From the NCBI GenBank assembly GCA_043228905.1, contig JBHGNT010000017.1, positions 13,950,001 to 14,014,000 of the forward strand: 64,000 nt of DNA. The letters run 5' to 3'. The DNA comes from Azolla caroliniana (taxonomy: Eukaryota; Plantae; Polypodiophyta). The notes under the pieces were generated by a model. The model ran no database searches and was not told the origin of the DNA. It saw nothing but the letters and a program-made list of their open reading frames with translations. The position numbers and the translations under genes were made by a program. Numbering within the stretch: the first letter of the stretch is position 1; the number at the start of each line of letters is the position of its first letter. Below are positions 29,161 to 61,962 of the stretch, one piece after another.

Positions 29161-30258
29161 CTCGATAATCCACAACCAAACAAATTGAGTCGTCCTTTTT
29201 CTTCACGGAAAAGATAGGAGCACTAGCTGGAGACTTTGAATGTCGAATAAATCCACTTGCAAGATTCTCGTCAATGTATGCTCGAAGAACCTCAAGCTCT
29301 GTTGGTGACAGATTGTAGATCGGACCCCATGGTGGCTCTTTTTCTGGTTGTAGATCAATGGGACAATCGTATGGCTGATGCTTTGGAAGTACACTAGCTT
29401 TGACTTTGTCGAAGACATCAACATATTCTTGGTACTTTTTAGGAATGTAGACCTCTGACTTCCCTTGAGTGTCACTAGAAGGTGCAACTGATATGGCAAA
29501 TAAGAATAAATCTTCTTTTGCTCCTTCTTGGCATAATTATTCTAGGGTGATGATTGAAATTTGATGAAGAGGAACAACATGTTTGGTAGAGGGTGAATTG
29601 GTAACCCTATGTTTTTCAAGGGGAGGATCCTGGGTTCGACCCTTGACTACTATGTTTCCTTTTGAAGGGCACCTAATTTCTCGTCGTCTCCAATCAATTC
29701 TTGGGTTGTGTAGCTCGAACCATGGCAAACCAAGGACTATTGGATGCTCAGGGATACGGATTATGTTAAAGGAGACCACACATCCTAAATCACCTAAGAG
29801 TATGTGTATCGGCTCAGACTCCTCTAATATCTTTCCAGAAGCTCTCATCGCCTATCTTGTATCCATTCTTATTCTACTTTAATACATTCATTCTTCTCTT
29901 ATCATTTCATTCCTCTTCTTGTGATCTCTTTATATCTTTCTTCTATCACTTTACCTTCTCTCTTGGTTCTAACAGTTTGAGAAGAATTGGTTTGAGAAGA
30001 ATTGTATGTCCATATTTAGAATAACCTAGTGATTTCTATAATGTTCTAGTATGTTCTAGACCTAGAATATTCTAAGATGTTCTAGGATATTCTAGAATGT
30101 TCTAGGATGTTCTAGAACATTTACAATATCAGTCTATTACAAGAAGTAGCTTTTATTATTTCATATAATCATCTTAATGGTTAGATTCTTGATTATGTAT
30201 TACAAGGTTTTGGGTTCAAGCCCAAGTGAAGCCACATAATGTTCACGGATTCATGACA
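29161..30258 (-). mobile_element. Gypsy (same lineage as 10360) protease/RT fragment with a rearranged LTR
   Basis: HPIVLGLPWFELHNPRIDW and FVKKKDDSICLVVDYRG on minus; LTR outer end TGTCATG at 30258. Confidence 0.82.
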
Positions 30259-33157
30259 GTGGGTCTCACCACTGAAGATGAAGGACAAGGTACTATCCTT
30301 CCTCAAGGAATTCCACGCGAGGGTGGAAAGGGAAACCAGTCGGGAGCTGAAGGTGGTTCAAGCGGACAACGAAGGAGAATACCGGGGGCAGTTCGAAGAG
30401 TACCACTAGTCGAAGGGAATCCGGCTCGAATTCCGGAGCATGCTAGCACATGCGAAACTGCCCAAGACGTTTTGGGTTGGGGTGCTAATGACAATGACGT
30501 ACATGATAAACAAATCACCCTCAGTGCCCTTCGAAGGAGAGTCGCCGCAGAAAGTATGGACCGGTAAAGATGTGTCTTACCGGCATCTAAAGGTGTTCAA
30601 TTGTCTCGCTTACATGCATGTTGCAAAGGACAAGAGAGCTAAATTGGATCCGAAGTCCTGGCCATGCATATTCCTTGGATACAGTGATGATGAGTTTGGG
30701 TACCGTGTGTGGGACTTGGTCGACAAGAAGGTCTTCCGGAGTCGAGACATAGTCTTCATGGAAAACAAGGCTATTATCGGCAGGGAGTTGGAGAAGAAGA
30801 TAGCGGACTCCGGGTCAACCGACAGAGATCGGTCGAAAGACACAAGGACCCATCTGACCGGAAGCCGGATAACACTCGAAGAACCGGCCGGATTCAGACA
30901 AGAAATCGAATCGACCGAAGAAGAAGAAGAATTGGATACCGGAACCGGACAAGACCTCGAATCGGATTTGGATGAAGAACAAATGGTGGAACTGGTGACC
31001 GAAGACCAAGGAAGAAGATATTCTCTCAGGGAGAGAAGAGCCCCCCGAAGATTTCCGGATGCAGAGCATGTGTTGCTGACCGACGAGGGGGTGTCGGAAA
31101 GCTTCGAGGAAGCGAAGAAAGACACCCAAAGCCACAAGTGGTTAAGTGCCATGCAGGACGAGATGGATTCCCTACATGAGAACCACACATATAAATTGAT
31201 GGAGTTGTCGAAAGGAAAGAGAGCGCTCCGGAACAAGTGGGTGTACAAGCTGAAACCAGGAGATGCCAGAAATCCACCAAAGTACAAAGCCCGCATTCTG
31301 GTGAAAGGCTTCTAGTAGAAGAAATGAGTGGATTTCTATCAGATCTTCACCCTGGTAGTAAAGATGACATCCATCCAGACTGTGTTGAGCATAGCAGCAA
31401 GCATGGACCTCGAGGTAGAGCAACTAGACGTCAAGATGACGTTCCTACATGGCGACCTCGAAGAAGAGATCTACATGCAATAGCCGGAGGGATTTGTCAA
31501 GAAAGGGAAGGAGCGCTTGGTGTGCCGGTTGAAGAAGAGCTTATACGGACTAAAGCAAGCTCCCAAGCAATCGTATCGGAAGTTCAACTCCTTCATGACC
31601 GACCAAGGATACCACAAGACGCGGACCGACCACTGTATATTTGTGAAGAATTTTGACGGGGGAGACTTCCTAATACTCCTGCTATATGTGGATGACATGT
31701 TGCTAGACGTCAAGATGGCGTTCCTACATGGAGACCTCGAAGAAGAGATCTACATGCAATAGCCGGGGGGATTTGTCAAGAAAGGGAAGGAGCGCCTGGT
31801 GTGTCGGTTGAAGAACAACTTATACGGACTGAAGCAAGCTCCTCGGCAATGGTATTGGAAGTTCAACTCCTTCATGACCGACCAAGGATACCACAAGACA
31901 CGGGCCGACCACTGTGTATTTGTGAAGAATTTTGACAGAGGAGACTTCCTAATACTCCTGCTATATGTGGATGACATGTTGATCGTCGAACTGGACCGAA
32001 CCAAAATTGGGAATCTGAAGAAGGCCTTGAACCAGACCTTCTCAATGAAAGATTTGGGTCCGGCAAGACAAATACTAGGGATGCACATAATCCAGGATCG
32101 GACGAAGAAACAGTTGTGGCTATCACAAGAGAAGTGTGTAACAAAGGTACTTCAAAGGTTCAACATGTCAGATGCTAAGCTAGTCGGGTTGACACTCCCG
32201 GAAAATTGCAAGCTATCCGAAAAGCAAAGTCCGAAGACAAAGGTAGAGAAGTCGGAAATGATGAAGATACCATATGCGTCTGCCGTCGGAAGCTTGATGT
32301 ACGTAATGGTGTGTACCCGGTCGAATATCGGATATGCTGTCGGAGTGGTCAGCCGGTTCATGAGCAATCTGGGAAGAGAACATTACACCGCGGTCAAGGG
32401 GATACTCCAGTACTTGAAAGGCAGCTTGAGTATCTACCTCTGATTCGGCTCCAGAAAACCCCAACTTGAAGAATTCACGGATTTAGATATGTCAGTTGAT
32501 GCGGATACCAACCGATCAACTTCCAGATATGTTATGACATATGCAAGGGGAGTCGTATCGTGACAATCGAGGCTGCAAAAGTCCGTTGCACTATCGACAA
32601 CGGAAGAGGAGTACATGGCAGCCGAAGAAGCCGGTAAAGAGGTAATCTGGATGAAGGACTTCATCGGAGAGCTAGGGATCCGGCAAGAGGAATTCCGGCT
32701 CTACTGCGACATTCAAAGTGCTATCCACCTTGCGAAGAACATGGCCTACCATTCCTAAACCAAGCACATCCAGAGAAGATATCACTGGCTCTGGGAGAAG
32801 GTAGCAAATAAAGAGTTCGTGCTGACAAAGATCCACACAGAGGAAAACAGGTAGGACATGCTAACCAAGGTGTTGTCGACCGATAACCTAGACGCGTGCA
32901 GGAGACGGATCGTATTGGCAAGACATCCCATGCAGGAGTGAAGGGGGAGCTTGTTAGGAATTCGGTCCCTCTAGATGGGATCCGGATCGGATGGATCCGG
33001 TGTGGACTGGATCCAGGGCCATATCTATAAATATGTTTCTGATGTACCTATCATGGCTATATTCGTAAAGTATAGCCCTAAAGTCATATAAGTATAAATA
33101 TGACTTAGGGCAATCATGTTATATGACTTTTGTAGTTGTAATTATTGTTATATAGAG

Positions 33158-34470: not shown

Positions 34471-34910
34471 GAAGTTGAGTCTTTACGATATCAAAACAAT
34501 GTTAATTTAGAAGTACATTTTTCAGCTAAATCTTGGGACGAGGAGCATGTAGGATTTTTCGATTTGTGAATCGGAGTTCAAAAGCCCAAGATACATCCTC
34601 CAAAAGGATCAATGTTACCTTTAAGATCACTCGGGACACAAATGTAATTGTATCAAAAGGGGCAGTTCGAAATTACATGAGGGTGATTTTGTAATTTCTC
34701 AAATGTACAATTACAAAATAGAATTTACAAAAATTATAATAAATTTATTTATTTATTTTTAAAATAAAATATAAATATTTTAAATAAATAATGCAACTGC
34801 CCCTACATGAGGGGGTTTACAAACCGCCTCAAAGAGGGTGGCAGGGCGGTTGAACCCCCAAAGGTGAAGGATGCACTCAAGAAGTTGACAATCTGAGCAA
34901 CAGAAGCTAA

Positions 34911-34991
34911 GAAAAGAAAGCCAAGTTGGTCTCGGGTGCTAGATTACGGTTTTGATCCAAAAGAGCATGGGTTCAAATCCCACTCTCATCA
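34911..34991 (+). pseudogene. tRNA-Leu(AAG)-derived pseudogene
   Basis: gccaagttggtct..agattacggtt..atgggttcaaatcccactctcatca; degenerate 5' end and anticodon. Confidence 0.75.
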
Positions 34992-35109
34992 TAATTCAAT
35001 TAAAATTGATACATGTAATGTTTGTTATCTAAATGAGTACTTCAGAGTGTAAACTTGGAAGTTTATGCCCCTATCTTATTTGAGAATGAAACAATTTGAG
35101 ATTTAGATA

Positions 35110-35190
35110 GACGATGTGACCGAGTTTGTCTAAGGCGCCAGATTAAGGTTCTAGTTCGAAAGGGCGTGGGTTTAAATCCCACTCTCATCA
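35110..35190 (+). tRNA. tRNA-Leu(AAG), best-preserved copy but probably a pseudogene
   Basis: 81 nt close to plant cytosolic tRNA-Leu(AAG): ccgagtttgtctaaggcgccagattAAGgttctagttcgaaagggcgtgggtttaaatcccactctcatca; acceptor-stem mismatches and T-loop TTT instead of TTC. Confidence 0.75.
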
Positions 35191-35522
35191 TAGTTCATGT
35201 GGTTTCAATTCCCACTCTCTTCATAATGCAATTTAAATTAATTACAAAATGGTTGTTATCTTAATAAGTACTTCAAGGTGTAAACTTGGAATTGCTCAAT
35301 GTTTTTATATCTTATTTTCGAATCAAATGAGATATAGTCAAATTAGTATCATGAGCCATATAAAGGTTCTTGTTTGAGATGGTCCATGGACTAAGGTTAT
35401 GGTTTAAGGAATCAGGGTGACAATCAAAATGTGTAAAACTATGAATGATTCAAACTAATCATGTTTTCTTCATGATTGAGCTGAAAGCATTTTAAGTGCG
35501 ATGAGCTGGTTTACTAGAACCA

Positions 35523-35603
35523 TAATGAAAGTGGGATTTCAACCCATGCCCTTTCAGTTAAGAGCCTTTATTTGGTGCCTTAGACCAACTCAACCATCTC
35601 ATC
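35523..35603 (-). pseudogene. tRNA-Leu-derived pseudogene, inverted copy
   Basis: Reverse complement gatgagatggttgagttggtctaaggcacc...gggttgaaatcccactttcatta. Confidence 0.75.
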
Positions 35604-35843
35604 ACACCAAAGAGGGCAAAGAAGATGAGCATTTTAACAGTGATCATTTCAAACCTAACTATGATCATTACAAAGCTAACTATTTAAAGGCATCGACATA
35701 AGGATGGGTTCTAGAGGCACTTTCACCATGCGTGACATAAATTCTTATAAAGTGTGTTCACTACGTCATGTGGTCGTGCACAATTGTATATGATTCCAAC
35801 TGTATTCAAAATCATAAGGATATAGCATTAAAACACCAACCTA

Positions 35844-35924
35844 GATGAGATGGTTGAGTTTGACTAATGTGCCAAATTAAGGTTCTTGTCCGCAACGGTG
35901 TAGGCTCAAATCTCATTCACATCA
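35844..35924 (+). pseudogene. tRNA-Leu-derived pseudogene
   Basis: gatgagatggttgagtttgactaatgtgccaaattaaggttcttgtccg...ggctcaaatctcattcacatca. Confidence 0.72.
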
Positions 35925-36296
35925 TGGTTCAATTAAAATTAATTACAACATGTTAGTTATCTAAATAAGTATTTGAGGGTGTAAACTTAGAGTTGCTTGA
36001 ACTATTCATCTCTCACTCACATCATGGTTTAAGTAAAATTAATTACAACATGTTAGTTATCTAAATAAGTACTCAAGTCTGTATTCTTAGGTTTGTTTGG
36101 TCCATTCATACCTTATTATCGAATTAAATGAGATGGTGTAATTAGTATCATGAACCCGATGAAGGTTCTCCTTTGAGAGGGACTGCATTTATGGTTTAAG
36201 GAAAATGAAGATGAAACCTAAAGTTGTAAAACTATGAACAATTCAACCAATCTTTTTTTTTTGTGACTAAGGTTTAAAAACACCTTAAGTATATTG

Positions 36297-39200
36297 GGAA
36301 GAATGTATGCCCAGGAAATGATGGATTATCACTAGAATTTTTTTTAGAATATTGGGATGATATAGCCGATGTTTTCACATCCTCTTTACAAGAAGTTTTT
36401 AAATTGGGAAGGACGCCTGCTGAATGGAATGAAGGAATGGTTTATTTGATTCCAAAATTAGAAGGTGCGGTGGATGATATTAAGAAATGGAGGCCTATAA
36501 CTCTTTTAAATATTGTATATAAAGTTTATGCTAAATTATTAGCGACACATCTGCAACCTTTTCTTCCACATATTGTGCATAAAACTCAGACAGGCTTTAT
36601 ACAAGAAAGGAGTATATTTGATAATATTTTCATGTTTTGGGAGATGATAGCAATAGCGCAAGAAACAAAACAAGAATTGACAATGTTGCTTTTGGATTTT
36701 GAGAAAGCATATGACAAAGTCGATTGGGATTTCTTATATGAAGTTATGGGTCGTCCAGGTCTTCCAAGTGACTATGTAAAAGCTGTTTTTATATTATATA
36801 ATTCAGCAACTAGTCGTGTTCTTGTTGGAGGAGCACTATGTAATACTTTCCCGATTACTAGATCGGTGAGACAAGGATGTCCTTTGGCTCCATATTTATT
36901 TCTATTGGTGGGAGAAGCCTTTACTGCATTCTTACATAAGAATAGGTTACCTATTAAAGGAATACAGTGGCCAGGTGTGGAGGAGGTTGTGTTAGACTTT
37001 GAATTTGCAGATGACACATCACTATATGTTGTAGGAGATGACATAAATCTCTGTAATGTGCAAAGTGTGATCCATGATTTCTGTGATGCTTCAGGCGCAA
37101 TTATCAATTGGCATAAATCAGTGGGATTTTGGGTTGGGGAAAGTCTTACTCCTACTTGGTGTCTAGACAGTGGATTCCGTAGGATACCAAAGGGCTCTCC
37201 TGTGAGATATTTAGGATGCCAAATGGGAATTAATCTTCCTCCAGAAGCTCATATACAACCATTATTGCTTTCTTTGAGGAAGAAATTGATATTTTGGAGT
37301 TCTAAGAATTTGTCACTTGTTAGGAGGCTAGTTATTTCTAATCAAGTATTACTCTCCTCAATGTGGTATATTCTATCCTCTTGGTTATTCTCCAGTTCAT
37401 TGTTATCAAAGTTACAGAGATTGATTAGGAATTTTTTATGGGGATCTACTGATTTTAATTATGTTAGACCAAAGGTAGCTTGGAAAACTATTATAGCGCC
37501 GACTTCTCAAGGGGGTTTAGGTTTGGTAGATCCATTATTGGCAAAATTTATTGTATGAGGATTACTACTAGGAAATGAGCCGTGGACGATGCTTCTTCAA
37601 TTGAGAATGAAAGAGGTCTTCCCAAAAACTGGAGGTGAATGGACAATGTCTCTCCGATGGTGGTTTATTCCTAACTTTCATTCGCATAAGATAGTGTTTC
37701 AAAATGATAGATTCTTCGCTGCGATAAAGCGACCCTGGTGGTCCATAAAGGATAACTTGCAACAAGTCTGACCCACTTCGGTAGATGAATGGTTACATCA
37801 GCCATTGGTTTGGAATCCTTTATTTCTAGACGTTGAAGGGTCTATGTTGGGAAGGAGAGTCGGATTAAATTGGGCTCAAGTGGACTCATCTTTTGCCTCA
37901 TCACTAGGTAATTGGCAACAGTTTGTTCACAACCCTACTCATATTATTCAACAAGAATGTAGAGGAATAAGAGGAGGAAAGGTGATAGTTGATGAGTTAA
38001 GGAGGTTGCAGTTACCCTTGCAGGATAATATACTTTCTAATTGTCATAAGTGGATGGGATTATTTTCGAATTTTCAGGTTTTACTGGGAGTTCGTGGCCT
38101 TAGAGATGATGGTACTTTCTTAATTTATGATGTTCTACAGAATGGACGATTATGGATGATTAACTAGGAAGATGAATGGTTGGCTAAGGCTATATTAAAA
38201 CCCATTAGAATTCTAGCTAAGGTAGATAAGGGTTGGGTTCTTGACCCTAATCCTAATGATGTGCATCCATGGTGGGATCTATGGGTAGTGGGAAAAAAAC
38301 CATTATGTGAATTGGATTGGGACCCAGGAGAATGGAAGTGGCTACCTACATCATATTCTGGGGAGGATGTTAGGCCAATTCCGTTTTTTCAGTATTCCGT
38401 TCGATTGGGAAGGGAGATGATAAGACGTAGGGTACCCCATTGGCCGACAGCAGCAACAAAATGGTTGACTTATAATGTGGATCCTACTCACATGACAAAA
38501 TTTTGGAAATGGCTATGGGCTATGCAAATTCCAAAGAAGATTATTCTATTTAGATGGTTGATTGTTAATTATGCGGTTCTTGTTAGAGCTTGGATGTATT
38601 GTAAAGAAGTGGATAAGATGTGTGATTTTTGTGGTTTAGAAGTGGAGTCTCTTCATCACCTATTTTGGTCATGTATGGCTACCAAATTGGTTTGGAAAAG
38701 ATTTTAACGTCTCTTGCATGAGGTTTATGGATCTAGAATATATAAATGGGGGGCAGTTATGTGGGCTAATATTAAGGGTGAGGTACAAGATTATGAAAAA
38801 GAAAATGTTAACTTTGCATTATATACAAGAGGTCGATATGTTGAGGAAGTGTCACCATACATGCCTATTAATTCAGTCCAAAATGGCGTGGTTTGGGAGA
38901 CGATTAGTTCAATAATTATATGGGTTTTGTGGACTAGTAGATGTCGAAGGATATTTCAGCAAATTCAATGGAATGTTGTGGATGTAGTCAAGGAGATTTG
39001 GATGACCTTAGTGCATACACTAAAAGGAGAATATGATGCTACCAAAGGTGATCCAGATGTATCTTTTGAAAGCAAGAGGTTTTTAAGAAGAGATGGGAAA
39101 GGATAAAGGTATTCTGCATGGTTGATGGTGGTATACGTTGGAGGTATCAGCCACCACTCTGGGTATTTCTTCCACAAACATGAGGCATGTGTCAATGTAT

Positions 39201-39775
39201 AACTATTATTTCTTATGCTCAGGGACAAACATATTTCTATAACAGTCTAAGAGTAGTTGAAAGGGACTATGCGAATTTTTGTGACCTATATTTTTACTTT
39301 GAAGGCATGCATAAGCCTAAAAGCTATGAGAAGAGGGCAAGAAATCCATAATGACATCATTGAAAGGGAGTTTGATTCAGATCCGTGTCTTGTGGCTATT
39401 CTAGTTTATGCATATGCTAAATGTGGCATTTTTGAATATGCTACTACAGTAATTGGACTACTTCCAGATGCAAACACCCTTGTAAGTTTGCTAAAGGACT
39501 GTGGTAGTGTAGTGGTAGTTGATAAGGGCATAGAAATTCACAATGAAATCGTGAGACTGTTGGAAGACAATATTGAGCTTGGGAATGCTTTGGTGGACAT
39601 GTATGCTAAATGTGGCCAGCTTGGAAAAAACCAAAAAAATACTCAATGATCTTTCAGATTGGGTGTTGTGGGATAGAGCGGCTTCAATAGTTGCACAATC
39701 TCTACGGAAAGCATAGCATTGTTGCTGATGTGCTTTTTTAAAACTAATGGAAGGATATTTTGTTTAAAATAATAA
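36297..39775 (+). mobile_element. 5'-truncated L1-clade LINE (ORF2 RT and zf-RVT) with PPR cargo
   Basis: WRPITLLN, LLDFEKAYD, RQGCPLAP, FADD, YLG, CDFCGLEVESLHHLFWSC; A-rich tail; 21-bp TSD AAAAACACCTTAAGTATATTG (36276-36296, 39776-39796). Confidence 0.92.
39195..39649 (+). pseudogene. PLS-type PPR gene fragment inside the L1
   Basis: FVTYIFTLKAC..GQEIH, LVYAYAKCG, LLKDCGS..KGIEIH, GNALVDMYAKCG. Confidence 0.88.
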
Positions 39776-39944
39776 AAAAACACCTTAAGTATATTGTATG
39801 ATCATTTCAAAACATACTAGTTAAAAATGTAAATGTAGTGTTGGGTTCCAAGTGCACTTACGACATGCTTGACGTAAAATCTTTTAATGTTCACTAATTG
39901 AAGTGGTCATGGACAATCATATATGATTCCAACATCTGAAACTA

Positions 39945-40242
39945 GAGGAGATGGATGAGTTAGTCTAAGATGCCAAATTAAGGTTCTAGTTCGAAAGTAA
40001 GTATTTGAAGATGTGAATGTAAGGATGGGTCTAACGACACTTTCTGCATGCTTAATGTAAAATCTTTATCACTATGTTCACTACTTCAAGCGGTTGTGCA
40101 CAACCATATATGATTCCAACATAATTCATAATGATCATAAATATGGCTTTAAAATGTCCTAAACAAGATGACATTGTTGAGTTGGTGGAAGGTGTTGAAT
40201 GTTTTGGTTGGAAAGTGTGTGGTTCAAATCCCACTCTCATCA
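39945..40242 (+). pseudogene. Two more degenerate tRNA-Leu-derived copies (39945-39997, 40167-40242)
   Basis: gagttagtctaagatgccaaattaaggttctagttcgaaag; ggttcaaatcccactctcatca followed by the shared downstream flank. Confidence 0.65.
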
Positions 40243-41145
40243 TGGTTCATCTACATGTTTGTTCTCTAAATGAGTACCTAAGAGTGTAAACATGGAATTG
40301 TTTTATGTGTTCATATCTTATTATCAAATCAAATGATATGGTTAAATTAGGATAATGATCGAGATAAAATATCTTGTTTGAGGGGCCTACATTTATGGTT
40401 TAAGAAAAATTAAGAACGCAAAAAGAAGGTGTTTAGTAATTTTGGCATGCTTAACGTAAAATCTTTTAAATTATGTTCATTACTTCAAGTGTTTGTGACC
40501 ATAATTTATTCCGTGGTAGTTTGTACCGTAGTATTCTACACATGAGGATAAAAGTGTGAGGGTTAATCAAGAGTGTAAAGAAGGAAGGATTACTTTTAAT
40601 CCTATGGACTGGGACAACCCTTAAGGGCGAAGTATAAACTTGCCTAAGGGACTTAGGCCTGGCAATAAAGATAAGGCATAGGTGTCCTCATTAGCCACAT
40701 TATTCAACTACATCAATATTGTCACCTTGTGATGAACAAACTCTTGTGGCGAGATAGCACTAGTACGAGGTATGACTCGGTGCCATGGCAGTGGTATGGG
40801 ATGTTGTTCAAGCGTTGGATCCGTCTCGATCCCTTCATTCAGGGGTGATTGGTTGGATCGACACCCTTCTTTTTGGCAGAACACACAAAAACGATTTTAT
40901 CGCTTGAAATCTTGATCCAAGAATTCATTAGGTATCTTGCATTTCCCAATGAATTGCAATTGCTTAGTCCCAAAGTACTTCAAGTTTATCATGGTCCTTC
41001 TTTGAAGTGCATTGATAACAAGAACCAATTTCAACGGTTGCTTTGAAGGATTTTGGACCCTTATCGTGCACTATCCAATGATAGTCTAAATTTGGGATGT
41101 CATTGACAAAACAAAAAGTTCACCAATTGTCCCATTCAAGACCTG

Positions 41146-41717
41146 GTGTTTTAATTTGGGTTCTCTCATGGTGAACATAACCCTCGAGCAAGGAAATTTT
41201 TTAGCTGGAGAGGTTCATTAGTGCTTACAATGCCTCTGTGTGAGATGGAGGTTGTAGAAATTGACCGTTGAAAATTGTGACAATGTTTGTGTAGGTATCT
41301 TGCAATTTCCTAGTAGTGTGAAGCCCATGCCACCAAGCAACCTTATCCCCTAGTTCTTGACCAAGATAGGCAATCTTCATACTATCTGTATTGGGATAGA
41401 CCTCAAAATGAGGTTCCCATCAGGCAAGGCAGTGTTTTAATTTGGGTTCTCTCATGGTGAACATAACCCTCGAGCAAGGAAATTTTTTAGCTGGAGAGGT
41501 TCATTAGTGCTTACAATGCCTCTGTGTGAGATGGAGGTTGTAGAAATTGACCGTTGAAAATTGTGACAATGTTTGTGTAGGTATCTTGCAATTTCCTAGT
41601 AGTGTGAAGCCCATGCCACCAAGCAACCTTATCCCCTAGTTCTTGACCAAGATAGGCAATCTTCATACTATCTGTATTGGGATAGACCTCAAAATGAGGT
41701 TCCCATCAGGCAAGGCA
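41146..41717 (-). repeat. 286-bp tandem duplication within a decayed Gypsy gag relic
   Basis: 41146-41431 and 41432-41717 appear identical; minus translation FEVYPNTDSMKIAYLGQELGDKVAWW is gag-like. Confidence 0.8.
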
Positions 41718-43723: not shown

Positions 43724-46700
43724 TTAAAGTTGAGGAGGACAAAGTTCAAACAATGGAAAGAATGGGCGAAAATATGATCCAGATAATATTTGTCGAGCAA
43801 GAACTTCATTAGCATGGTCAGTAAGATGAACCCCATCCCAATTGATGTATTCTGATGGATTTACACATGACAATGCAGAAAGAAATTGACCATGCACATG
43901 GTTGCTCATACCACATTGTACTCCAAAGTCAAAATTGTGTTTGCCACCAACTCCACAACATGCACGAGTCGTGTAGTTAAAACCTATATATCAAAATTTT
44001 AATTATTACAAAATTCACCATATTATATTTCAAGACCATACCAATTATATTAAATTGAATCAAATCCAATTATAGTCAAATGCCTATAATGTGTTACACA
44101 ATATTTGTCAAATGCACTATACATATAGTACATGTAATATGTTCAACTTGAATATTCCTTTTGAGGAAGGATTGAATCATATGGTTTGGCAATATTGTAG
44201 TAGGTAAAGGATGATAATCACAACATCTAGATTAAGTGAAACTAGTAAAAAAGTGTGACCCATGATGTAGAAACTTTTTTTTTAATACATTCTAGTTCTG
44301 TTTGTTTGCCGATTATGTGTATTTGACTATTTTTATACGTAGATATTGCTTTGCATTACTATCTCGAGTGAAAACATTACAACATTAATGGCAAGATTGT
44401 TTAATTGGTATTGCTCTTCAAATCACGAAATAATGTGTGAAACCCTAGGGTTTGGTGGTGATCATATATTTGAGCAATATGTTACTTGCAGTACACATAC
44501 AAAAAGTCATTGTACAAGGACGACCCTTTATATCATCTACGAGTGGTAAATGGGAGTCTGAGGATACCTTAGTAGTTATAATGAGTGCTAGAAGGAGCCA
44601 AAAGATGCCTTAAAAAGTCACAAGACTACACTGCAAGTTGGAGAATACTATAGCTTTATCATAGATGTGGCGTATACTACACAAGTTAAATAATGAAGAC
44701 TATACTTTTTACAAAGTTGTAATGCGTTATAGCTAAAATAAAAAAAAGTAGTTGTGTCCAAGACATTGCTCTTCTTAGCACCTTTACGTGGTTTTGTGGC
44801 TTCATATATAATTGAGAATTGAAGGTACTGACAAAGACATTGTATCAATGGTGAATGACGAGTTTAGGATAATGAAGGAAATTAGTAATTGGGTGACAAC
44901 TTTGATGACATATAAAAAGAAGGTAAACAATGCAACTATTGGATAATGGGATGTGTCGATAGGTGTCAATTAGTGTATGCATGCTAAATCGTGGCAAGGT
45001 AGGTAAATGAGCATCAGTAATGACTAGAGTTAAACCCATTACTCTATAACCAACAAAAATGACACTACACTTGTGCAAGGGAGGATGCTATCTACGAAAA
45101 TTGAAAGGGCTTTTTAGAAACACAAGCAATTTAATACTTATAGTGGTCCCACTACTACCTAGCCCTTTAGTCTTTAAGTTTAGAGATACATAATGACTTT
45201 GGGAACCATATGAGAATGAAGCCTATCACACAATTGAGAAGTCTTAGAGAGAATGGGCTACAACACCTTTTTTTGTGTAAGAATTAGATGCAATTAGGCA
45301 GGTATACATACCATAGCGAGGGGCATGTTTGATCATGGAGTATTGGATGTGAAAAGTGTCGACGAATACAATGTCGGAGGTCAGTAACACAGATTGCAAG
45401 CGCCGGAGCTGCTCTCGAAGCAGACGATTGTAGAGTGCGACGGCTTCATTGTAGGGGCGAGCACAACCACACTCGTCTATGTCGCTCATCTTTATGTTGG
45501 CCGCATACTTTGTGAGTGTCATAGGCATGCACCCTTGTGGCCCCAAATCAAGGACCCAAATCCTCCTAGCCCCTTCATCATATAGTGCCTTACGAAAAAT
45601 AAAAATTCCCAACATGGTTGGATCGATTTAGGTCACATCCAATAAGGAAGCATTGGTGACATAAAAGACTTATATTTAAACCCACATTATGATCACATAA
45701 TAAGCTCACACTATACACATTTGTCATAATAGTGATGTCTTTCTTTTTTACTTACTTTAGTGAGTGACTTGACATTTAGCTTGTATTAGAGGAATGGGGA
45801 TTATTTATAGGCCAATCTCTATTAATTCTCTAGGATTTTTTTTAAATCTTTTGGCTGTTTTTATGGACCTAAGTTCCCCTAAACTTTGCAATGAAACGAA
45901 GGAAACTCTTTCAGAATGAATTTCAGCAATCTAGCAAGAAGCTGAAGATTTGGCCCCTTTGTTTTTTTTGTGAAGTATTCTTAGCTCTAAGTTTCTAGAT
46001 TTCTGAGGTTAAATCATAACCTATAAAGCTTCAGCCGAACCATTTACATTTGTATCTAAATTGCATCAAGATTCGGAATTAGACTGGTTTTCATTCGTGT
46101 GTGTATACCGTGATCGCATCGCTTACGGCATTCACTATCTTCGGTAGATAGCTCTTGATTTGTTCGGCGTCCATCTTGAGCTTCATGTAGGCATAGCTGA
46201 AATCGTTGCCTCCGATCCCGAGTATGTAGAGACCGTCCCGAAATGCCCTCACCTCCGGCAAATAATTCGTCCGACCTCCTCCTCCTGCACAAATTGATTC
46301 GATCAAATTTCATGGCATTCACCCGAAGAATTCATTCGATGAATATGGCCATTTCATCCTTCCTCCACAATTTGTTCTCTTAAATTGCACCTCTGGGATG
46401 TAAATCCATTCATCCGAGCCCCCGGATCCATGTCTAATGAATGGAAACATACCCTGAATCGAGAGAGGAGCCCAATCCGATCCATTTTGTATTCGTAACA
46501 AAAAATGGAAAATTACCCAATTCATTGCGTGCTCGGCGGGCCGCAACCTGCAAGACTTGTTGCTTGAAGACTTTGAATTGATTGACTTGAATCGCGAGGC
46601 TCATGGGGCTGATGAAGGAGCCGGGCATGGCGGTCGCCCCAGACGAAGCGAAGTTGGCCCCATCCGAGAAGTTGGAGTCCACAGATTGAAGGAAAGGGCT

Positions 46701-52911: not shown

Positions 52912-53984
52912 CTCTAGACTCTCTCTCTCTCTCTCATATTTGTTGTTTCTCTGCAAAACATGTTTATGAGGGACTTCATCAACCACATACTCGTATTTCA
53001 AGCCATTATTTTACTACTAAGCCCCTTTTCTTAGGATCAGATGACTTCACATGTACTCTTGCTTGCAACTTACATGTTCTATCTTAAAATCTTTGTCATG
53101 TATTGTGTTGAGAACTTCATAGGAACCTATGGGGAATATCTACAATGCAATCTATGAATATGATATTAAGAAGCTCATATGAATCCCAAATTTGGTGCAC
53201 ATGTAACTGTTCTTATAGTAGTACAACATGTAACAGTTCTTATGGTCTCTTGTATTTGCAACCTAAGACGTAGAAGTAATTAATGGTTCAAAACCACAAG
53301 TAACCTATAAATCCCATTTTTCTAGAATAATAGGATTTGGTAACAGGAAATAGTCAATCATTGGGCGAAGGGTTCATGGTAATCTTATTCTTAATGGAAT
53401 GATTGGAGGTGTGTATATGCATGAGCATGCTGATTTGTGTGAAACCATATGTCATGGACTCTATTTCTTCTAATTTTGAAATGCTTCGCTGTTTTTAAAT
53501 GGTTTGGTGGTTCCGTTTAGGCTTGAGCTTCCTCAGCCGGTTTGAGCTCAATTAGGTTTGGCTTGGGCCTTTCGAAACAGGTTAAGCCTTAACTAGTTTA
53601 GAGATCAGTTTAGTTTAGGCTTGACAGGTTTGTCTTGGACGAGGTCAAACTGGTTAACTGAAACCTAACCATTGCCGATTCCAAGTCGGGATTGACAAAA
53701 CTTGGGTTCGGGCCCGAACCGAGCCGTGAAACCGTGGTGTAACCGGCTCGGTTTATGTAGTTCTAGAGATAAGCAAATGGCTCGAGTTCGGTTCAAGGGT
53801 ACCGTTTGCTGCTTCTCAACCCCAACAATTCCTTCTTTAAGTTTCTGTTGTAAAGAAACACCTGCCAACATAACCCTAATACTTGAAGAAAAATGAATTT
53901 GAGGAACAGATGAGAAGCATTGGATGATTTGCTTTGATTTGATTTAATTATATTTGATCTGATATGGTTTGATTGTATTGAAGA

Positions 53985-56660
53985 ATGGCCATGGAAGAAG
54001 AGGAAGACGACAACCTAGCTGACACCTGCTTCAATCCAAGGACATGGCTCCCTTCACAAATCCTTCCTGCCCATTTGCTCTACGAGCAAATGCAACAGAG
54101 TGGCATTACTCCCAACAAATACATATACCCTGCAACCTTAAAAGTATGTGGCGACCTCCGAGAACTGAAACAAGGTAGGGTTCTGCATGATCATGTTCTT
54201 AGACATGGTCTTGAATCAGACATTGTCATTGGAAGTGCCCTTGTTGATCTGTATTGCAAGTGTGGAAGCCTCGATGAATCATCCCATTTGTTCCATAACT
54301 TGCCCATCAGAAATGTTGTCACTTGGGGTGCTTTGATCTCTGGCTATGCTCAGTATGGCTATGGTGACTCTGCATCTCAACTCTTTGCTAGGATGAAGAT
54401 GGAAGGCATTAAGCCCAACAAGGTAGTCTTTTTGAGCATTTTGAAGGCTTTCGGTGCTAGTGCAAGATTGCAAAAGGGTAGATTGTTCCATAATGAGATC
54501 CTTAGAAGTGGATTTGAAAAAGATTTGGCGGTTGCAAACATGTTGATTTTCATGTATTCTAGAGGGGGAAATATGGAGGAGGCATACTCTGTTTTCAGAA
54601 TGTTAAGGTTTCGTAATGTTGTGTCATGGGGAACACTATTAAGTGGGTATATGCAACAAGACCGAGGAGAGATTGTGCTCAAACTCATAGAAAAAATGGA
54701 TCTTGATGGCATTAAGCCCAACACATTTATCTTTTCATGCATCTTGAAGGCATGTGGTGGCACTGAATCTTCAAAGCAAGGAAAGTTGGTGCATGACCAG
54801 ATCATTAGAAACAAACTTGAGACCGATACTGTGCTTTCTAGTTGCTTAATTGACATGTATTCAGAGCAAGGGATTCTGCATGAAGGTCGATATGTGTTTG
54901 ATAAACTAAAAGACAGAAATATAGTTTCATGGAATGTGATGATGTGTGGGTATGTCCATCACGGACACAGTCTCCATGCACTCAGCTTCTTTGCTAAGAT
55001 GAACCAAGAGGGCGCAGAGCCAAACAAAGCAACTTACTTATACCTTTTACAGGCATGTGGTGATTCCGGAGGTATATTAGAGGGCAACATGTTGCATGCT
55101 CATATAGTTGAAAGTGCAACTGTAGTGGATGTGATTATTGGAAGCTCGCTTATTGACATGTATACCAAATGTGGGGGTTTAGAGGATGCTCATGAGGTTT
55201 TCTGTAGATTATCTAAGAGGAATGTGATCTCATGGAGTGCCATTATCAGGGGATATGCTTATCATGGACATCATCTTCATGCTTTGGAACTCTTTGAAAG
55301 AATGAAAGAAGAAGACATACAACCTGACAAAGTTACCTTTCTATGTGCTTTAAAGGCCATTGGAAACCTAAGGATGATGATACAGGGAACACTAATTCAT
55401 GACTCTGTTATTCTAATAGGACTAGAATCAGATGTGATGATTGGGAATGGTCTTATGCACATGTATTGCAGCTGTGGCAGCTTTGAATCTGCTTGCAAAG
55501 TGTTTGATAACATGCCTAATAGAGATGTTGTATCTTGGAGTGCAATGATCACAGCACATGCTGCTCATGGTGACATTGCAATAGCATTTGGCCTTTTCAA
55601 GAGGATGCAACAAGAGAAAATAATTCCTGATAGAGTTACATTGTTATGCATGGTAAAAGCGTGTGGCATAATCGGAGCATTAGATCAGGGCAAGCTTATA
55701 CATGACTATATCCAACACAATGGAGCCGATTTAGAATTAGCTGTAGGGAATGCACTTGTTGATATGTATGCAAGATGTGGGAGCTTGGAAGACTCATCGA
55801 GAGTGTTTCATAACTTATCGGAACCAGACATTATTTCATGGGGAGCAATGATTGCTGGATATGCAGAGCATGGTAGCTTTAATGAGGCATGGGAATGCTT
55901 GCAAGCTATGGAAAGGCGAGGGTTAGTGCCGAATGGTATTATGTTTACTTCCATTCTTTCAGCATGTGGTCGGTCTGGTAATATCAATACAGGGCATCTA
56001 TATTTTCGGCTTATGATCGAGCGATATGGTATAATACCTACTTTTGAGCATGTTAACTGCATGGGTGACCTTTTTGGTCATGCAGGCTGCTTAGAGGATG
56101 CTATGCAGCTATTGCAATGTATGCCAAACCAACCTGACCTTACTGGGTGGATGTCTCTCCTGACAGCATGTAGAACACATGGTAATAGAGAAGTAGGGAA
56201 GAAATCCTTCTATAAAATATCAGAACAAGATCTAAGCTATGCAGGAGGATACGATTTCATGGCGGATATTTATGCCGATGGTGAGGACCGGGAAGTTGCA
56301 TCAAAGATTCAGGAATTAAGGTCTATGAGTAAGGCCTGGAAAAAACCTGGAAAAGCATGGATGGAGATTGGGAACAATATTTATGAGTTTATTGTTGGGG
56401 ATAAGTCACACCCTCGATATGAAGACATTCGATCGAAGTTGGGAAGTTTGAGTGGTTTGATGAAGAAAGGAGGGTATCTACCACACCTTGATGTAGTAAC
56501 TGACCGATTGATTGGGAAAGATGAGGGGTTTAATAATGGCAGTGAAACCCAAATGTGTACTAACAGTAATATATTTTCAAACATTTCTAAAAGAGAAGAA
56601 GATAATACGTTAAATGTTTTTCGTGGTGTTCATTCCATGTGTATGTATGTGCATGTGTGA
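53985..56660 (+). CDS. PLS-class PPR protein with E1/E2 and PG-box (E+), lacking the DYW catalytic part
   Basis: 891-aa intronless ORF of P-L-S triplets; KKPGKAWMEI..FIVGDKSHP..MKKGGYLP; no HxE or CxxC. Confidence 0.95.
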   Translation: MAMEEEEDDNLADTCFNPRTWLPSQILPAHLLYEQMQQSGITPNKYIYPATLKVCGDLRELKQGRVLHDHVLRHGLESDIVIGSALVDLYCKCGSLDESSHLFHNLPIRNVVTWGALISGYAQYGYGDSASQLFARMKMEGIKPNKVVFLSILKAFGASARLQKGRLFHNEILRSGFEKDLAVANMLIFMYSRGGNMEEAYSVFRMLRFRNVVSWGTLLSGYMQQDRGEIVLKLIEKMDLDGIKPNTFIFSCILKACGGTESSKQGKLVHDQIIRNKLETDTVLSSCLIDMYSEQGILHEGRYVFDKLKDRNIVSWNVMMCGYVHHGHSLHALSFFAKMNQEGAEPNKATYLYLLQACGDSGGILEGNMLHAHIVESATVVDVIIGSSLIDMYTKCGGLEDAHEVFCRLSKRNVISWSAIIRGYAYHGHHLHALELFERMKEEDIQPDKVTFLCALKAIGNLRMMIQGTLIHDSVILIGLESDVMIGNGLMHMYCSCGSFESACKVFDNMPNRDVVSWSAMITAHAAHGDIAIAFGLFKRMQQEKIIPDRVTLLCMVKACGIIGALDQGKLIHDYIQHNGADLELAVGNALVDMYARCGSLEDSSRVFHNLSEPDIISWGAMIAGYAEHGSFNEAWECLQAMERRGLVPNGIMFTSILSACGRSGNINTGHLYFRLMIERYGIIPTFEHVNCMGDLFGHAGCLEDAMQLLQCMPNQPDLTGWMSLLTACRTHGNREVGKKSFYKISEQDLSYAGGYDFMADIYADGEDREVASKIQELRSMSKAWKKPGKAWMEIGNNIYEFIVGDKSHPRYEDIRSKLGSLSGLMKKGGYLPHLDVVTDRLIGKDEGFNNGSETQMCTNSNIFSNISKREEDNTLNVFRGVHSMCMYVHV

Positions 56661-58282: not shown

Positions 58283-59941
58283 TTAACTCTGCAACATTTT
58301 TAATCTCATGGCTTGTACCTTTTCAGCATCCTGTTTCATGTTAGAGGCCGAATAGATATTAGCCATGAGGGTATAATGAGCATCATTACTATGTAGTTGT
58401 GATGCATTTTCAAAGGCAAACCTCCCTAGATCCACATATCCCCATTTCCGACATGCACCTAAAAGAGCAGCCCAAACCGGTGGATAGTCTGAACATGGCA
58501 TCTTCTTAATTGCTGTCACTGCCTTATCTATATGTCCGGCCCGACCAAATATATCCACCATGCAAGTATAGTGCTCTAAATCTAGAAACATGCCATGACT
58601 TTGACTCATGTTAACAAAACATGTTTCTCCCTCATCCACCAAGCCAGAGTGACTACATGCATTGAGCAAACATAAGAAAGTGACAATATTTGGGGTTAGC
58701 CCTTCAGATACCATTTGTTTGAAACATGCCATCGCTTCTATTCCTTGGCCTCCTTGGGCATATCCCGAGATCAATGCATTCCAAGAGGTAATGCTCCGAT
58801 TCGGAAGCTTTTGAAGCACTTCGTATGCTTTCAGAAGAGCCCCACATCTCGCATACATATCAACCAAAGCAGTGCCAAGCACAGCATCGTTTTCTAGCAA
58901 CCCTTGCTTATCAATTTCATCATGGATCTCCTTTCCTTTGTCAAATGCTCCCATGGATCCACAAGCTTTTAAGACGCAAGTGAATGTGATTTCATCAGGC
59001 AATATGCCGTCTTGTCTCATCGATTCAAGACAATCTAGTGCTTCTTCAGCCCTACATTGTTGTAAATATCCTGAAATCAGTGCATTCCATGAGACTATAT
59101 TTCGAGTCGACCCTAGATCAGAGAGAGCTTTTCGAGCTTTTACAAGGCACCCGCATCTCGCATACATATCAACCAAAGCATTCCCAAGACGGACATCATC
59201 GTCTTTCAACAAACGTTTGGCCATAATCTCATCATGAACCTCTTCACCCATGCAAAGCTTTCTCATGCGTCCACAAACTTTCAAAATACAAGTAAACGTG
59301 ATAGAATTAGGTGCTATACCTTCATTCTTCATGCATTCAAAGCAATTTAATGCTTCCTCATCTTGCCCCAACCGAATATATCCTGTTATTAGAGCATTCC
59401 AAGTGGCCACATTTCGGGTCGGCATCTTGCAAAGCACATGCTTTGCTTCTATCAACACACCAAATTTAGCATACATATCCACCAAAGCATTGCTAAGCAC
59501 AACATGTTTGTTGCTCTCCAATAAACCCTTATTCATAATCTCGCTATGAATCAATCTCCCCTTCTTTATGGCTGGAATGGATCCACAAGCCTTCAACAGA
59601 GAAGTATATGTTACAGAATCAGACGAGAAGCCATCACTCTGCATCTCATCATAAGCTTTCATGGCCTCCTCACATTGACCCAAATGGGTATACCCTGAGA
59701 TGAGGGCAGACCAAGAGACACTATCCCTGAAAGGAAGGTTTTCAAGGACTTGGTGGGCTTTTGTGATCATACCACATTTTGCATACATACTCACCAGAGT
59801 GTTACCCACATAAGGGCTCCTCTCAAGTAAGCCCTTCTTCAGAATGCTTGTGTGAGCTCTCATACCTCTGCATAGATCTTTCTTCTGTGTGCAGTCCTTC
59901 AGTAAGGCCACAAAGGCCATACCTTCCTTGCATTGCTTCAT
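58283..59941 (-). CDS. PLS-class PPR protein, E subgroup
   Basis: Intronless ORF with PLS repeats, EHYTCMVDIFGRAG, WAALLGACRKWG, YTLMANIY; first ATG at 59941. Confidence 0.93.
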   Translation of the reverse strand: MKQCKEGMAFVALLKDCTQKKDLCRGMRAHTSILKKGLLERSPYVGNTLVSMYAKCGMITKAHQVLENLPFRDSVSWSALISGYTHLGQCEEAMKAYDEMQSDGFSSDSVTYTSLLKACGSIPAIKKGRLIHSEIMNKGLLESNKHVVLSNALVDMYAKFGVLIEAKHVLCKMPTRNVATWNALITGYIRLGQDEEALNCFECMKNEGIAPNSITFTCILKVCGRMRKLCMGEEVHDEIMAKRLLKDDDVRLGNALVDMYARCGCLVKARKALSDLGSTRNIVSWNALISGYLQQCRAEEALDCLESMRQDGILPDEITFTCVLKACGSMGAFDKGKEIHDEIDKQGLLENDAVLGTALVDMYARCGALLKAYEVLQKLPNRSITSWNALISGYAQGGQGIEAMACFKQMVSEGLTPNIVTFLCLLNACSHSGLVDEGETCFVNMSQSHGMFLDLEHYTCMVDIFGRAGHIDKAVTAIKKMPCSDYPPVWAALLGACRKWGYVDLGRFAFENASQLHSNDAHYTLMANIYSASNMKQDAEKVQAMRLKMLQS

Positions 59942-61167
59942 GAGCAAGACAAGAGCAGCCCTGTTCTACTCTTTGAGTTTCCATGCTAATATTTATGTGA
60001 ATCAATCAATAGTGGTCATTCATTACTCTTGTGTTTTTTTCTACACTAGTCCAAAGTGTCCATAGGATGCAATCGATCCGGTTCGAAACCTCGGATCGCC
60101 CACAAGAGACTCTTCTTGTTACGTTCGGACTCGGTGAATCAATATGTATGTTACACCCCTAGATTATGGGGGGGACAAGTACACACGGTCGAGACACCAA
60201 TTAGGACACAAATCGTAGTTATATCTCATTATGAATACACAAGATTACAACCGTCCCAAATTAGGATAAACCACTCGGAGTTGGGACTGAGTCGGAACAA
60301 CTCCCTGAAACCACCATAAGGGGGAGATGGCAAAATGATTACACACTTCTTAGATCTGAGATGAGAATGAGAAAGTGTGAGAGAATGGATATCAGAAAAT
60401 GGTAATGTGGGAATAGTTACACATGAGGAAGGATCCGCCCTATATAGGCCAAATATGGTCGTTGGGTGGTCCCCTTGGGACTGCCCATTGAGACTATGTT
60501 ATCCCATCCCAAGGTGGAGCCTTCTTTGGGACTGGGACTGGGACTAGCGCCCATGATGAGTCCCAACTCACATTGGGACAACTTATGGACACCACAATGT
60601 ATCCTACACATATCCGATGTCCACAAGATGCTTTCTAGTTCGAAACCTCGGATTGACCACGAGAGACTCTTGTTACATTTGGACTCAGTTTGGTTTTTCA
60701 ATACACTTGGATTACATACATGCCTTTCTCTCATTTTTCCTCACGCACAAATTCGTATGTGTATGAAGCTTCAAATTTTTAAACATTCAAGAGTTTCAAT
60801 AATAATCATACCTTCAATTTAGTGAATCTATAAGCTATAAGTAGAGTTTTTGTGGGGCCGGTTGAAGTCTATTAAATGGCAATGCCTCAAAATGGAATGA
60901 CCTTGATGTCTTATGGAAAAAGTGATGGACAATAAGCTTGATGATTTTGTCAACTATTCTTTAATTATTGCGATATGTGTGCCAATAAATGCCGTGACAA
61001 CCCTAACATATAATCATTGCTTCCCATGTCAATGAAACCCACAATAATTAAAGAGTCTAATATGTACTTCTATGATGTATCGTTAAAAGTTTCAAGAGTG
61101 ATAACAAATTTCTATACTAAACAATTATGTCACTTACATTTCTTGTTATATGAAAAGAAGAATTTTC

Positions 61168-61577
61168 TTTTTCTTTTTTTCCAAAAAAAAAAAGACTCCT
61201 TCCATTAGTTATACAATTTTACAAATGAGATTATTATGTACAAATCTCTGTAGGGACGCGATAGTTCCATCTTATGTGGATGCCCACTAACTCAAGAAAG
61301 GGAGAGAACGACCATTGTTGGATGAAGGCTATTCGTTGTCTTTCAACTCCATCGGAGCTGCCCTTGAGGCCATCATATTGGCTCTTTAGAGTGGCTACAA
61401 TTTCACTCCATATCTCTTGCAGTAACATTGTTGGATATGCGGTTTGGTTGGAGAAGACCCGTCTACACCGTTGTTTCCATAGAATCCAAAGAGTTATTGG
61501 GCTGACCAATTCCAACACAACTTGAGATTTGTCATTAAGAGGACTTGAGTGGACTTTGGCGAGGGTGGAGAAAGAAG
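61168..61577 (-). mobile_element. Short 5'-truncated L1 fragment
   Basis: TLWILWKQRCRRVF..WNYRVP resembles the L1 end at 38900-39180; A-rich tail; 13-bp TSD AAGAAGAATTTTC (61155-61167, 61578-61590). Confidence 0.82.
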
Positions 61578-61962
61578 AAGAAGAATTTTCAATATTGTAA
61601 ATAAGGAACATTGCATTACTTCAATATATTCCATAAGCTAATTATTCTATATGGTAGAAAAGACTACATGGGAAACAAAGTTATATACATTTACATAATA
61701 ATGTAAACACTTTTTGCTAGCATCGCTTGCTCTCAAAATGGAAGTGTCACTCTAATCTTCACTCCATTTTGAATGTGAATAGAAGACATCCCCAAGTACA
61801 ACCTTGCATCGAACTTCACACTCAAAATACTAAAAATTAAGTGTTTACTAGGATCAAACCACAATAAAAAAGGAAGTGCACATAAGCCTTGAGAGGAAAG
61901 GAAAGGCAGTGTCAAAAGAAGAACTTTAGTGACCATTTTATATGACATTTTTTGCCACTCCT

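What the first reader, a model, noticed from the sequence alone, without database searches (positions are those of the whole stretch)
36276..39796. L1 retrotransposon carrying a PPR gene fragment inside its target-site duplication
Seen: the perfect 21-bp TSD brackets L1 ORF2 (ending ~39183), ~450 bp of PLS-PPR coding sequence in the same orientation, a short tail and an A-rich end. The PPR piece therefore most likely moved with the LINE, by 3' transduction or as a captured 3' UTR component. Known: plant PPR genes are mostly intronless and retroposition is a proposed route of their expansion. This is a direct snapshot of such an event, 14 kb from two intact PPR genes.
Basis: partly seen in the sequence, partly recalled or inferred. 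Interest (0 to 1): 0.78.

Follow-up and report, generated by a model that had tools for sequence, protein, structure and literature searches.

The report
Fern LINE tails built from PPRs
A broken jumping gene (a LINE) in a plant, likely a fern, carries scraps of PPR genes inside its tail, and many relatives carry such scraps in the same place and direction, likely picked up and swapped when the element's copying enzyme jumps between RNAs; the scraps likely make no protein.

Summary
In detail: an exact 21-bp target-site duplication (36276/39776, TT|AAAA site) brackets a 5'-truncated, decayed L1-type ORF2 (stop 39181-39183) and about 400 bp of sense PLS-PPR sequence. It is not a fresh transduction. 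The PPR lies upstream of the LINE's own 23-nt 3' terminus, whose 14-nt core ends a second, PPR-free L1 in the window. In contigs of one run it is 21-43 times deeper than the flank. Of 37 other insertions with enough upstream DNA, 18 have sense PPR before the terminus (antisense 0 of 37; downstream 0 of 47). This copy's tail is a mosaic: module A is 92% identical to PPR in a contig whose ORF2 end is only 58% identical, and module B plus terminus is 96% identical to another copy. The two neighbouring PPR genes are not donors. Best reading: an L1 clade whose 3' UTRs repeatedly captured and exchanged PPR coding pieces, most likely by RNA template switching (inferred). No new functional PPR gene is shown; some supporting contigs are chimeric. 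No plant-LINE/PPR case turned up in 8 literature searches; the scan noted analogous LINE captures on other DNA, none with PPR.

The parts
36276..36296 (.). Left target-site duplication (21 bp), preceded by TTT (TT|AAAA endonuclease-type site)
36297..39183 (+). 5'-truncated L1-type ORF2: RT (~36479-37222), zf-RVT (~38489-38695), four in-frame stops, frameshift near 39061, stop 39181-39183; no endonuclease, no ORF1
39184..39205 (+). Post-stop stretch ending in TGTATAACTA, a 10-nt match to the start of the second L1's terminus; relatives' contigs stop matching at 39186-39204; possible vestigial terminus or switch point
   Evidence: table 8; 62 of 20000 shuffles reach 10 nt
39206..39260 (+). Linker, multicopy with the PPR modules; origin unresolved (PPR-like reading not significant)
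39261..39462 (+). PPR module A (L and S motifs); 169 of 183 nt identical to L009; L009's stretch is colinear with PPR protein P0331
39463..39657 (+). PPR module B, joined in frame to A at a short microhomology, skipping one P motif; shared with L046, L024, L037, L044, L058, L035
39658..39741 (+). Rest of 3' UTR; about 220-245 nt present in L024, L037, L044, L058 are missing at 39658-39666 here and in L046
39742..39764 (+). Conserved 23-nt LINE 3' terminus
39765..39775 (+). Short A-rich tail
39776..39796 (.). Right target-site duplication
61168..61577 (-). Control: second, distant 5'-truncated L1 (ORF2 end, ~60-nt UTR, same 14-nt terminus core, no PPR) with a 13-bp TSD at 61578-61590 and 61155-61167
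53982..56660 (+). Intact PLS-E+ PPR ORF; not the donor
58283..59965 (-). Intact PLS-E PPR ORF; not the donor

Best explanation
This is a dead, 5'-truncated copy of an L1-type LINE whose 3' UTR holds sense fragments of PLS-PPR coding sequence upstream of the element's own 3' terminus, an arrangement shared with many relatives and likely built by the reverse transcriptase switching between LINE RNA and PPR-bearing RNAs. Shown: the TSD, the order ORF2 - PPR - terminus, the multicopy state, the two-module mosaic and the sense-only bias. Inferred: reverse transcription starts at the conserved terminus, jumps at short microhomologies onto a PPR mRNA or onto another subfamily's PPR-bearing LINE RNA, and jumps back, so chimeras that keep both ORF2 and the terminus found new subfamilies. 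Once one tail held PPR sequence, homology with the very large fern PPR family would favour further PPR switches. The cargo then decays as non-coding UTR. I put the architecture (stable, family-level capture) at about 0.9 and template switching as the main route at about 0.55.
For: Terminus: 62 metagenome loci carry the exact 23-mer; 52 of 57 distinct places have an A-run within 20 nt behind it and 5 show 12-17-bp TSDs; its 14-nt core closes the PPR-free second L1. Sense bias: PPR HMM hits (>=12 bits) within 600 nt upstream in 18 of 37 places, antisense 0 of 37, downstream 0 of 47 on either strand, so there is no target preference for PPR genes. Multicopy: summed contig depth over 39228-39537 is 21-43x the flank in X1 and 46-106x a single-contig level in X9; one 204-nt X16 contig at depth 638.5 (flank 25) spans 39162-39367; an X1 contig spans the A/B junction (39377-39498). 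Polarity: in X20 the ORF2 end (34-102x) and terminus region (19-78x) are deep but 39228-39475 is 0.5-2x. Exchange: module A 169/183 identical to L009 while the ORF2 ends are 174/299 (shuffled mean 50%, max 56%); module B plus terminus 289/302 to L046; L035 joins B-type PPR to another terminus subtype. At least four nucleotide-distinct PPR sources. No TSD or TIR above chance around the PPR piece (longest direct repeat 6 nt, shuffles give 6-8). Template switching at chance similarity is described for LTR elements (PMC5470649, PMC13317346; passages read).
Against: PPR genes lack introns, so an RNA intermediate for the capture cannot be shown; DNA-level gene conversion would also give sense, homology-guided exchange. 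The 10-nt terminus-like remnant after the stop fits read-through capture as well. The 18 places are not independent: many share an old piece at -330 to -150. Supporting loci are low-coverage short-read contigs and at least one pair is chimeric (L007/L024 share 395 nt downstream but only 203 nt upstream; L039/L045 also disagree), so the long-range ORF2-to-PPR link in L009 is less sure; L008/L018 agree fully over 995 nt. Only 2 loci (L009, L041) show an ORF2 end and a terminus on one contig, and L041 has a PPR hit by blastx (48-55 bits) but none by the HMM. 19 of 37 places show no PPR; several are short truncated inserts, but 8 of 22 with long shared upstream also have none. Contig depth is not a copy number. 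No donor gene was found.
Confidence: 0.55

Rival explanations
1. Old read-through capture between two LINE ends: a full L1 inserted in a PPR gene, transcription ran past its terminus and stopped at a short 5'-truncated L1 end lying downstream in the same gene; the first terminus decayed and the composite became a master element, later trimmed by deletions.
For: 10-nt terminus-like remnant right after the stop (62 of 20000 shuffles) and a looser one in L009; very short terminus-only insertions are common (8-299 nt upstream of the motif); L009 and L017 hold successive parts of one PPR orthogroup (P0331 aa 1-195 and 311-644), as if one long gene copy was captured; L017's 65-nt downstream flank may resume PPR sequence (weak).
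Against: No poly(A) remnant after the first site; 0 of 47 downstream flanks are PPR, so repeated sense-only PPR capture from random flanks is unlikely; does not by itself explain module A shared between L1s with near-unalignable ORF2 ends.
Confidence: 0.2
2. DNA-level capture: break repair (filler DNA, synthesis-dependent annealing) or ectopic gene conversion copied PPR gene pieces into the UTR of master elements and swapped modules between copies.
For: Microhomology junctions and in-register deletions; no poly(A) or TSD at module ends; homology would also keep the sense direction after a first capture.
Against: Filler DNA should come from any sequence in either direction; the first captures of several different PPR sources are all sense.
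Confidence: 0.17
3. One-off recent 3' transduction of a flanking PPR gene piece by this L1 copy.
For: PPR lies inside a perfect TSD, downstream of ORF2, same strand.
Against: It lies upstream of the family terminus, is multicopy in 2 of 4 runs over its whole length and in a third over part, and its two internal junctions are shared with other copies.
Confidence: 0.03
4. Later independent insertion of a PPR piece into this copy, or misassembly.
For: The 5' junction and the full-length path were not bridged by any listed contig.
Against: No TSD or TIR at the PPR ends; independent contigs bridge stop-linker-A (X16), A-B (X1), B-terminus (L046) and terminus-flank (X1, X2, X3).
Confidence: 0.03

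Closest known systems
Drosophila telomeric non-LTR elements with captured host gene fragments (TART-A/nxf2; piwi and aub captures; PMC13534243, passages read)
   Same: Non-LTR element carrying host coding fragments in its UTR across many copies; repeated captures of the same kind of gene; replacement of one captured region by another.
   Different: Plant L1-type, non-telomeric; cargo is from a huge organellar RNA-binding family, not silencing genes; no small-RNA effect tested here.
Bs1 and other LTR-element template-switch captures in plants (PMC13317346, PMC5470649; passages read)
   Same: Internal mosaic of gene fragments from several donors, carried by the element.
   Different: No LTRs; TSD, A-tail and L1-type ORF2; all donors seen are of one gene family. 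The review passages I saw give no plant LINE example.
L1 3' transduction (defined in PMC13317346, passages read)
   Same: Host sequence mobilised inside the TSD, 3' of ORF2.
   Different: Cargo is upstream of the element's own terminus, without an internal poly(A), and is shared by many copies.
L1-like retrocopies in dicots (PMC4838847) and retroposition-associated PPR expansion in early land plants (PMC13386178; passages and one results section read)
   Same: LINE machinery and PPR sequence moved through RNA; TT|AAAA site, TSD, A-tail.
   Different: Those are stand-alone gene copies; the PPR study points mainly to flanking LTR elements and its duplication analysis included no fern. Here fragments ride in cis within the LINE and are decayed.

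Membership tests
L1-clade LINE | RT closest to L1 ORF2p | tested here: met
   Human L1 ORF2p E 2.4e-42 versus R2 2.7e-21; RVT_1
L1-clade LINE | N-terminal APE endonuclease | tested here: inconclusive
   Absent from this truncated copy; present in relatives of 50-61% identity (PF03372)
L1-clade LINE | C-terminal zinc finger (zf-RVT) | tested here: met
   PF13966 E 1.1e-8
L1-clade LINE | TSD at a TT|AAAA-type site and A-rich tail | tested here: met
L1-clade LINE | ORF1 | not testable with these tools
   Copy is 5'-truncated; no genome held
L1-clade LINE | Placement in an RT tree with reference clades | not tested
   No reference set on hand
Classical 3' transduction | Cargo downstream of the element's own 3' end | tested here: not met
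   Terminus at 39742-39764 follows the PPR
Classical 3' transduction | Poly(A) remnant between element and cargo | tested here: not met
   None at 39184-39260; only a 10-nt terminus-like remnant
Classical 3' transduction | Cargo private to copies from one source locus | tested here: not met
   Multicopy and shared across subfamilies
PPR retrogene | Complete ORF with own poly(A) and TSD | tested here: not met
   130-codon fragment missing a P motif, no own TSD
TART-like host-fragment capture (works like) | Host fragment fixed in the UTR of many copies | tested here: met
TART-like host-fragment capture (works like) | Element-derived small RNAs act on the donor gene | not testable with these tools
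   No small-RNA data on hand
TART-like host-fragment capture (works like) | Donor gene identified | tested here: inconclusive
   Best lead P0331 (63% to L009 over 182 aa, 59% to L017), probably an ortholog from another plant
Template-switch capture (Bs1 type) | LTR-bounded element | tested here: not met
   No terminal repeats other than the TSD
Template-switch capture (Bs1 type) | Internal mosaic with microhomology junctions | tested here: inconclusive
   Mosaic shown; the A/B microhomology is only about 5-8 nt and was not tested against chance

The most novel reading that the evidence does not exclude
A fern L1 clade acts as a homology-guided PPR shuffling machine: because its tail is made of PPR repeats, its reverse transcriptase keeps switching onto PPR mRNAs, making chimeric repeat arrays and PPR retrocopies (some with 260-290 open codons) that feed the fern PPR expansion, while the PPR tail also shields the element by tying its silencing to essential PPR genes.
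Probability: 0.15. Interest if true: 0.87.

Novelty: new variant of a known kind. Interest (0 to 1): 0.6.

Why it matters
Ferns have some of the largest PPR families (over 2,000 and 1,700 in two water-fern genomes, PMC6786969, passages read) and retroposition is the favoured but indirectly supported route (PMC13386178). A LINE clade whose tails are made of exchangeable sense PPR modules names a concrete vehicle and a mechanism for recombining PPR repeat arrays, which set RNA-target specificity. It makes two things testable: whether young PPR genes carry this LINE terminus, and whether LINE small RNAs hit PPR genes. It also warns that ORF-based PPR counts may include LINE-borne fragments. As it stands, only decayed fragments are shown.

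Tried and rejected
No whole genome was held, so copies could not be counted directly. Empty site: not found; X1-X3 hold the filled 3' junction, X9 lacks the flanks, X16 has a flank contig starting near 39795 (inconclusive), and 116 and 15 joints were not shown. No RNA holder listed. Donor gene: two protein searches gave no near-identical protein among the 120 of 327 and 120 of 299 hits listed. Viral contigs: 0 matches to the terminus. Selection: NG86 on short stretches gave dN/dS 0.44 (A vs L009; 5 syn, 8 nonsyn), 0.09 (B vs L046; 3, 1), 0.53, 0.70, 0.63, 1.01 (L024, L037, L058, L044); counts are too small, and the script failed before the L035 and L046-based comparisons. PPR origin of the linker and of 39658-39741: not significant by blastx or a small nucleotide HMM, which also barely saw the known PPR part. 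Terminus folding is not special (z 0.02). The idea that the 23-mer is itself a PPR coding motif was rejected: A-tails follow it, downstream is never PPR, and it follows ORF2 directly in the second L1. A 5-nt repeat (AACTA) at 39201/39742 as a TSD of the insert is within chance. With 2 mismatches allowed the 14-mer count in the window is not above chance (20 of 100 shuffles); the support is that both matches are exact and sit before A-tails (expected 8e-4 exact hits). Look-up of earlier findings by sequence found nothing.

Full report
Observation. The window holds an exact 21-nt repeat at 36276-36296 and 39776-39796, found nowhere else in it, with a chance expectation near 1e-7. The left copy follows TTT, giving the TT|AAAA site known for L1 (PMC4838847, passages). 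Between the copies lies one long reading frame with RVT_1 and zf-RVT, closest to human L1 ORF2p among solved structures (E 2.4e-42; R2 2.7e-21). It starts at about residue 470 of 1445-1458-aa relatives that have the endonuclease, has four in-frame stops and a frameshift near 39061, and ends at 39181-39183. It is a dead, 5'-truncated copy. Sense PLS-PPR homology covers 39281-39628 (E 1.7e-25); the top named hits are Ceratopteris and Adiantum proteins, so the host is likely a fern (inference). The two intact PPR ORFs in the window match the piece only over 46-53 nt of the generic motif.

The LINE's own 3' end lies behind the PPR. A second, distant L1 fragment at 61168-61577 (-) has a 13-bp TSD, a UTR of about 60 nt and no PPR. 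Both elements have the same exact 14-mer just before the A-tail, the only two matches in the window. The 23-nt version of this terminus occurs in 62 metagenome loci, 57 distinct places after dropping 5 with the same downstream flank (L018, L024, L033, L045, L056). 52 of 57 have an A-run within 20 nt, and five show 12-17-bp TSDs around short inserts. So the PPR piece sits inside the 3' UTR, not behind it, and there is no poly(A) between ORF2 and PPR.

It is multicopy. Laying contigs of four runs on 38980-39880 (ratios) gave, in X1, 127-396x the flank depth at the ORF2 end, 21-43x over 39228-39537, 379-699x at the terminus. X9 (organism C) gave 46-106x over the same PPR stretch, taking 24 from single contigs as unit because it lacks the flank. 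In X16 (organism E) 39197-39382 is 25-57x, with one 204-nt contig at depth 638.5 spanning 39162-39367, but 39383-39475 is 1-2x. In X20 (organism F; unit 6 from single contigs) ORF2 end and terminus region are deep while 39228-39475 is 0.5-2x, and a 1160-nt contig matches 39279-39445 with 13 differences and no ORF2 match upstream, a candidate donor or L009-like copy. Ordinary PPR paralogs lay only at the 39569-39630 motif. The tool warns that summed depth is no copy number; I use it as a rough contrast only. The 3' junction is bridged in X1, X2 and X3; the 5' junction was not seen in the listed pieces.

It is family-wide and sense-only. A profile HMM from 400 PLS units hit (>=12 bits) within 600 nt upstream of the terminus, sense strand, in 18 of 37 distinct places with at least 300 nt upstream (20 had less); antisense 0 of 37; downstream 0 of 47 on either strand (10 had too little). 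These 18 are not independent, since many share an old piece at -330 to -150. Among 22 places with at least 250 nt of shared upstream, 14 hit and 8 did not. L009 reads ORF2 end (92% to P0004), about 700 nt with degenerate repeats, about 1.6 kb of PPR including a 288-codon open stretch, terminus, A-tail. L041 reads ORF2 end (81% to P0007), 1.25-kb UTR, weak PPR, terminus. L017, L038, L046 and L008 carry 1.0-1.7 kb of other PPR sequence with stops.

This copy's tail is a mosaic. 39278-39460 is 169/183 identical to L009, whose ORF2 end aligns at only 174/299 (shuffled mean 50%) and 29/70 residues. 39463-39764 is 289/302 identical to L046. The A/B join is in frame, at a few shared bases, and skips a P motif; an X1 contig at depth 110.5 spans it. 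About 220-245 nt present in L024, L037, L044 and L058 are missing at 39658-39666 here and in L046. L009 and L017 hold successive parts of one PPR orthogroup (P0331 aa 1-195, 63%; aa 311-644, 59%). No TSD or TIR above chance bounds the PPR piece. Caveat: these loci are low-coverage short-read contigs; L007/L024 and L039/L045 disagree upstream of a shared flank, while L008/L018 and L029/L033 agree fully.

Mechanism. Shown: insertion by target-primed reverse transcription hallmarks, internal position, multicopy state, several PPR sources, sense-only direction, no PPR in target flanks. Inferred: template switching between LINE RNA and PPR-bearing RNA explains direction, position, lack of poly(A) and TSD at module ends, and sharing between distant subfamilies; homology with a family of about two thousand genes (PMC6786969, passages) would make it recur. 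Rivals are an old read-through between two L1 ends, supported by a 10-nt terminus-like remnant after the stop (62 of 20000 shuffles), and DNA-level conversion. Intronless donors prevent a direct test. The cargo looks non-coding: fragments, stops, shifting junctions; dN/dS values of 0.09-1.01 on very few changes are inconclusive.

Comparison with what is known. It works like TART-type host-fragment capture (PMC13534243, passages) and Bs1-type template-switch mosaics (PMC13317346; PMC5470649; passages), and is neither a classical transduction nor a PPR retrogene. The PPR-expansion study (PMC13386178; passages and section 6) links retroposition mainly to flanking LTR elements in hornworts, a moss and lycophytes. 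TE-captured fragments as siRNA sources are reviewed for maize; 24-nt RNAs are weak in many ferns (PMC5569507, passages), which tempers the silencing idea. Eight searches (listings and abstract starts only) showed no plant LINE with PPR-filled UTRs; Repbase, Dfam, subscription journals and supplements were not seen. The labels P, L, S motif and target-primed reverse transcription are from my own knowledge.

Verdict. Real feature, first reading partly right. New variant of a known kind: a plant L1 clade with modular, PPR-derived 3' UTRs. Interest 0.6; 0.87 if it proves to seed or shuffle functional PPR genes (probability about 0.15).

Noticed in passing
window 34900-36260 and 39800-40500: The flanks are degenerate copies of a repeat with a tRNA-like head (Rfam tRNA 35110-35190, E 0.07, below gathering score; ARAGORN none); possibly an old SINE or MITE family into which the L1 inserted.
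   Followed up: partly
L040:708-1446; also L009, L012, L041, L045: A degenerate ~147-151-nt tandem repeat (about 5 copies in L040) lies in the 3' UTRs of other subfamilies, between ORF2 and the PPR part; absent from the window copy.
   Followed up: partly
L017:1-1029 and L038:1-1062: 1.0 kb of nearly open PPR frame (one stop each) fused to a LINE terminus; could be PPR-LINE chimeric retrocopies or PPR copies hit by a short L1 end.
   Followed up: partly
L025, L039, L045 downstream of the terminus: Three loci share similar sequence behind the A-tail; a short TSD-bounded L1 end appears to sit inside another repeat, or a true 3' transduction.
   Followed up: no
window 39742-39755 and 61197-61210: A 14-nt terminus core is exactly conserved between the two L1s in the window, whose ORF2 ends are each only ~30-42% identical to the same full-length relatives; suggests sequence-specific recognition of the 3' end; no special fold.
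   Followed up: partly
window 6126-6275 (+): Third small L1 ORF2 scrap (zinc-finger region), followed by what looks like the end of an LTR.
   Followed up: no
window 41146-41717: Perfect 286-bp tandem duplication; recent duplication or assembly artefact.
   Followed up: no
window 23640-24420: Array with both direct and inverted self-similarity.
   Followed up: no
window 11398-13250, 27451-32443, 45244-47449, 25612-26277: Decayed Gypsy-like and Copia-like pol pieces, GDSL lipase exons (-) and a DUF7869 ORF.
   Followed up: no
window 40433-40600: Start of a very high-copy repeat: summed depth 39,000-93,000 in all four runs.
   Followed up: no
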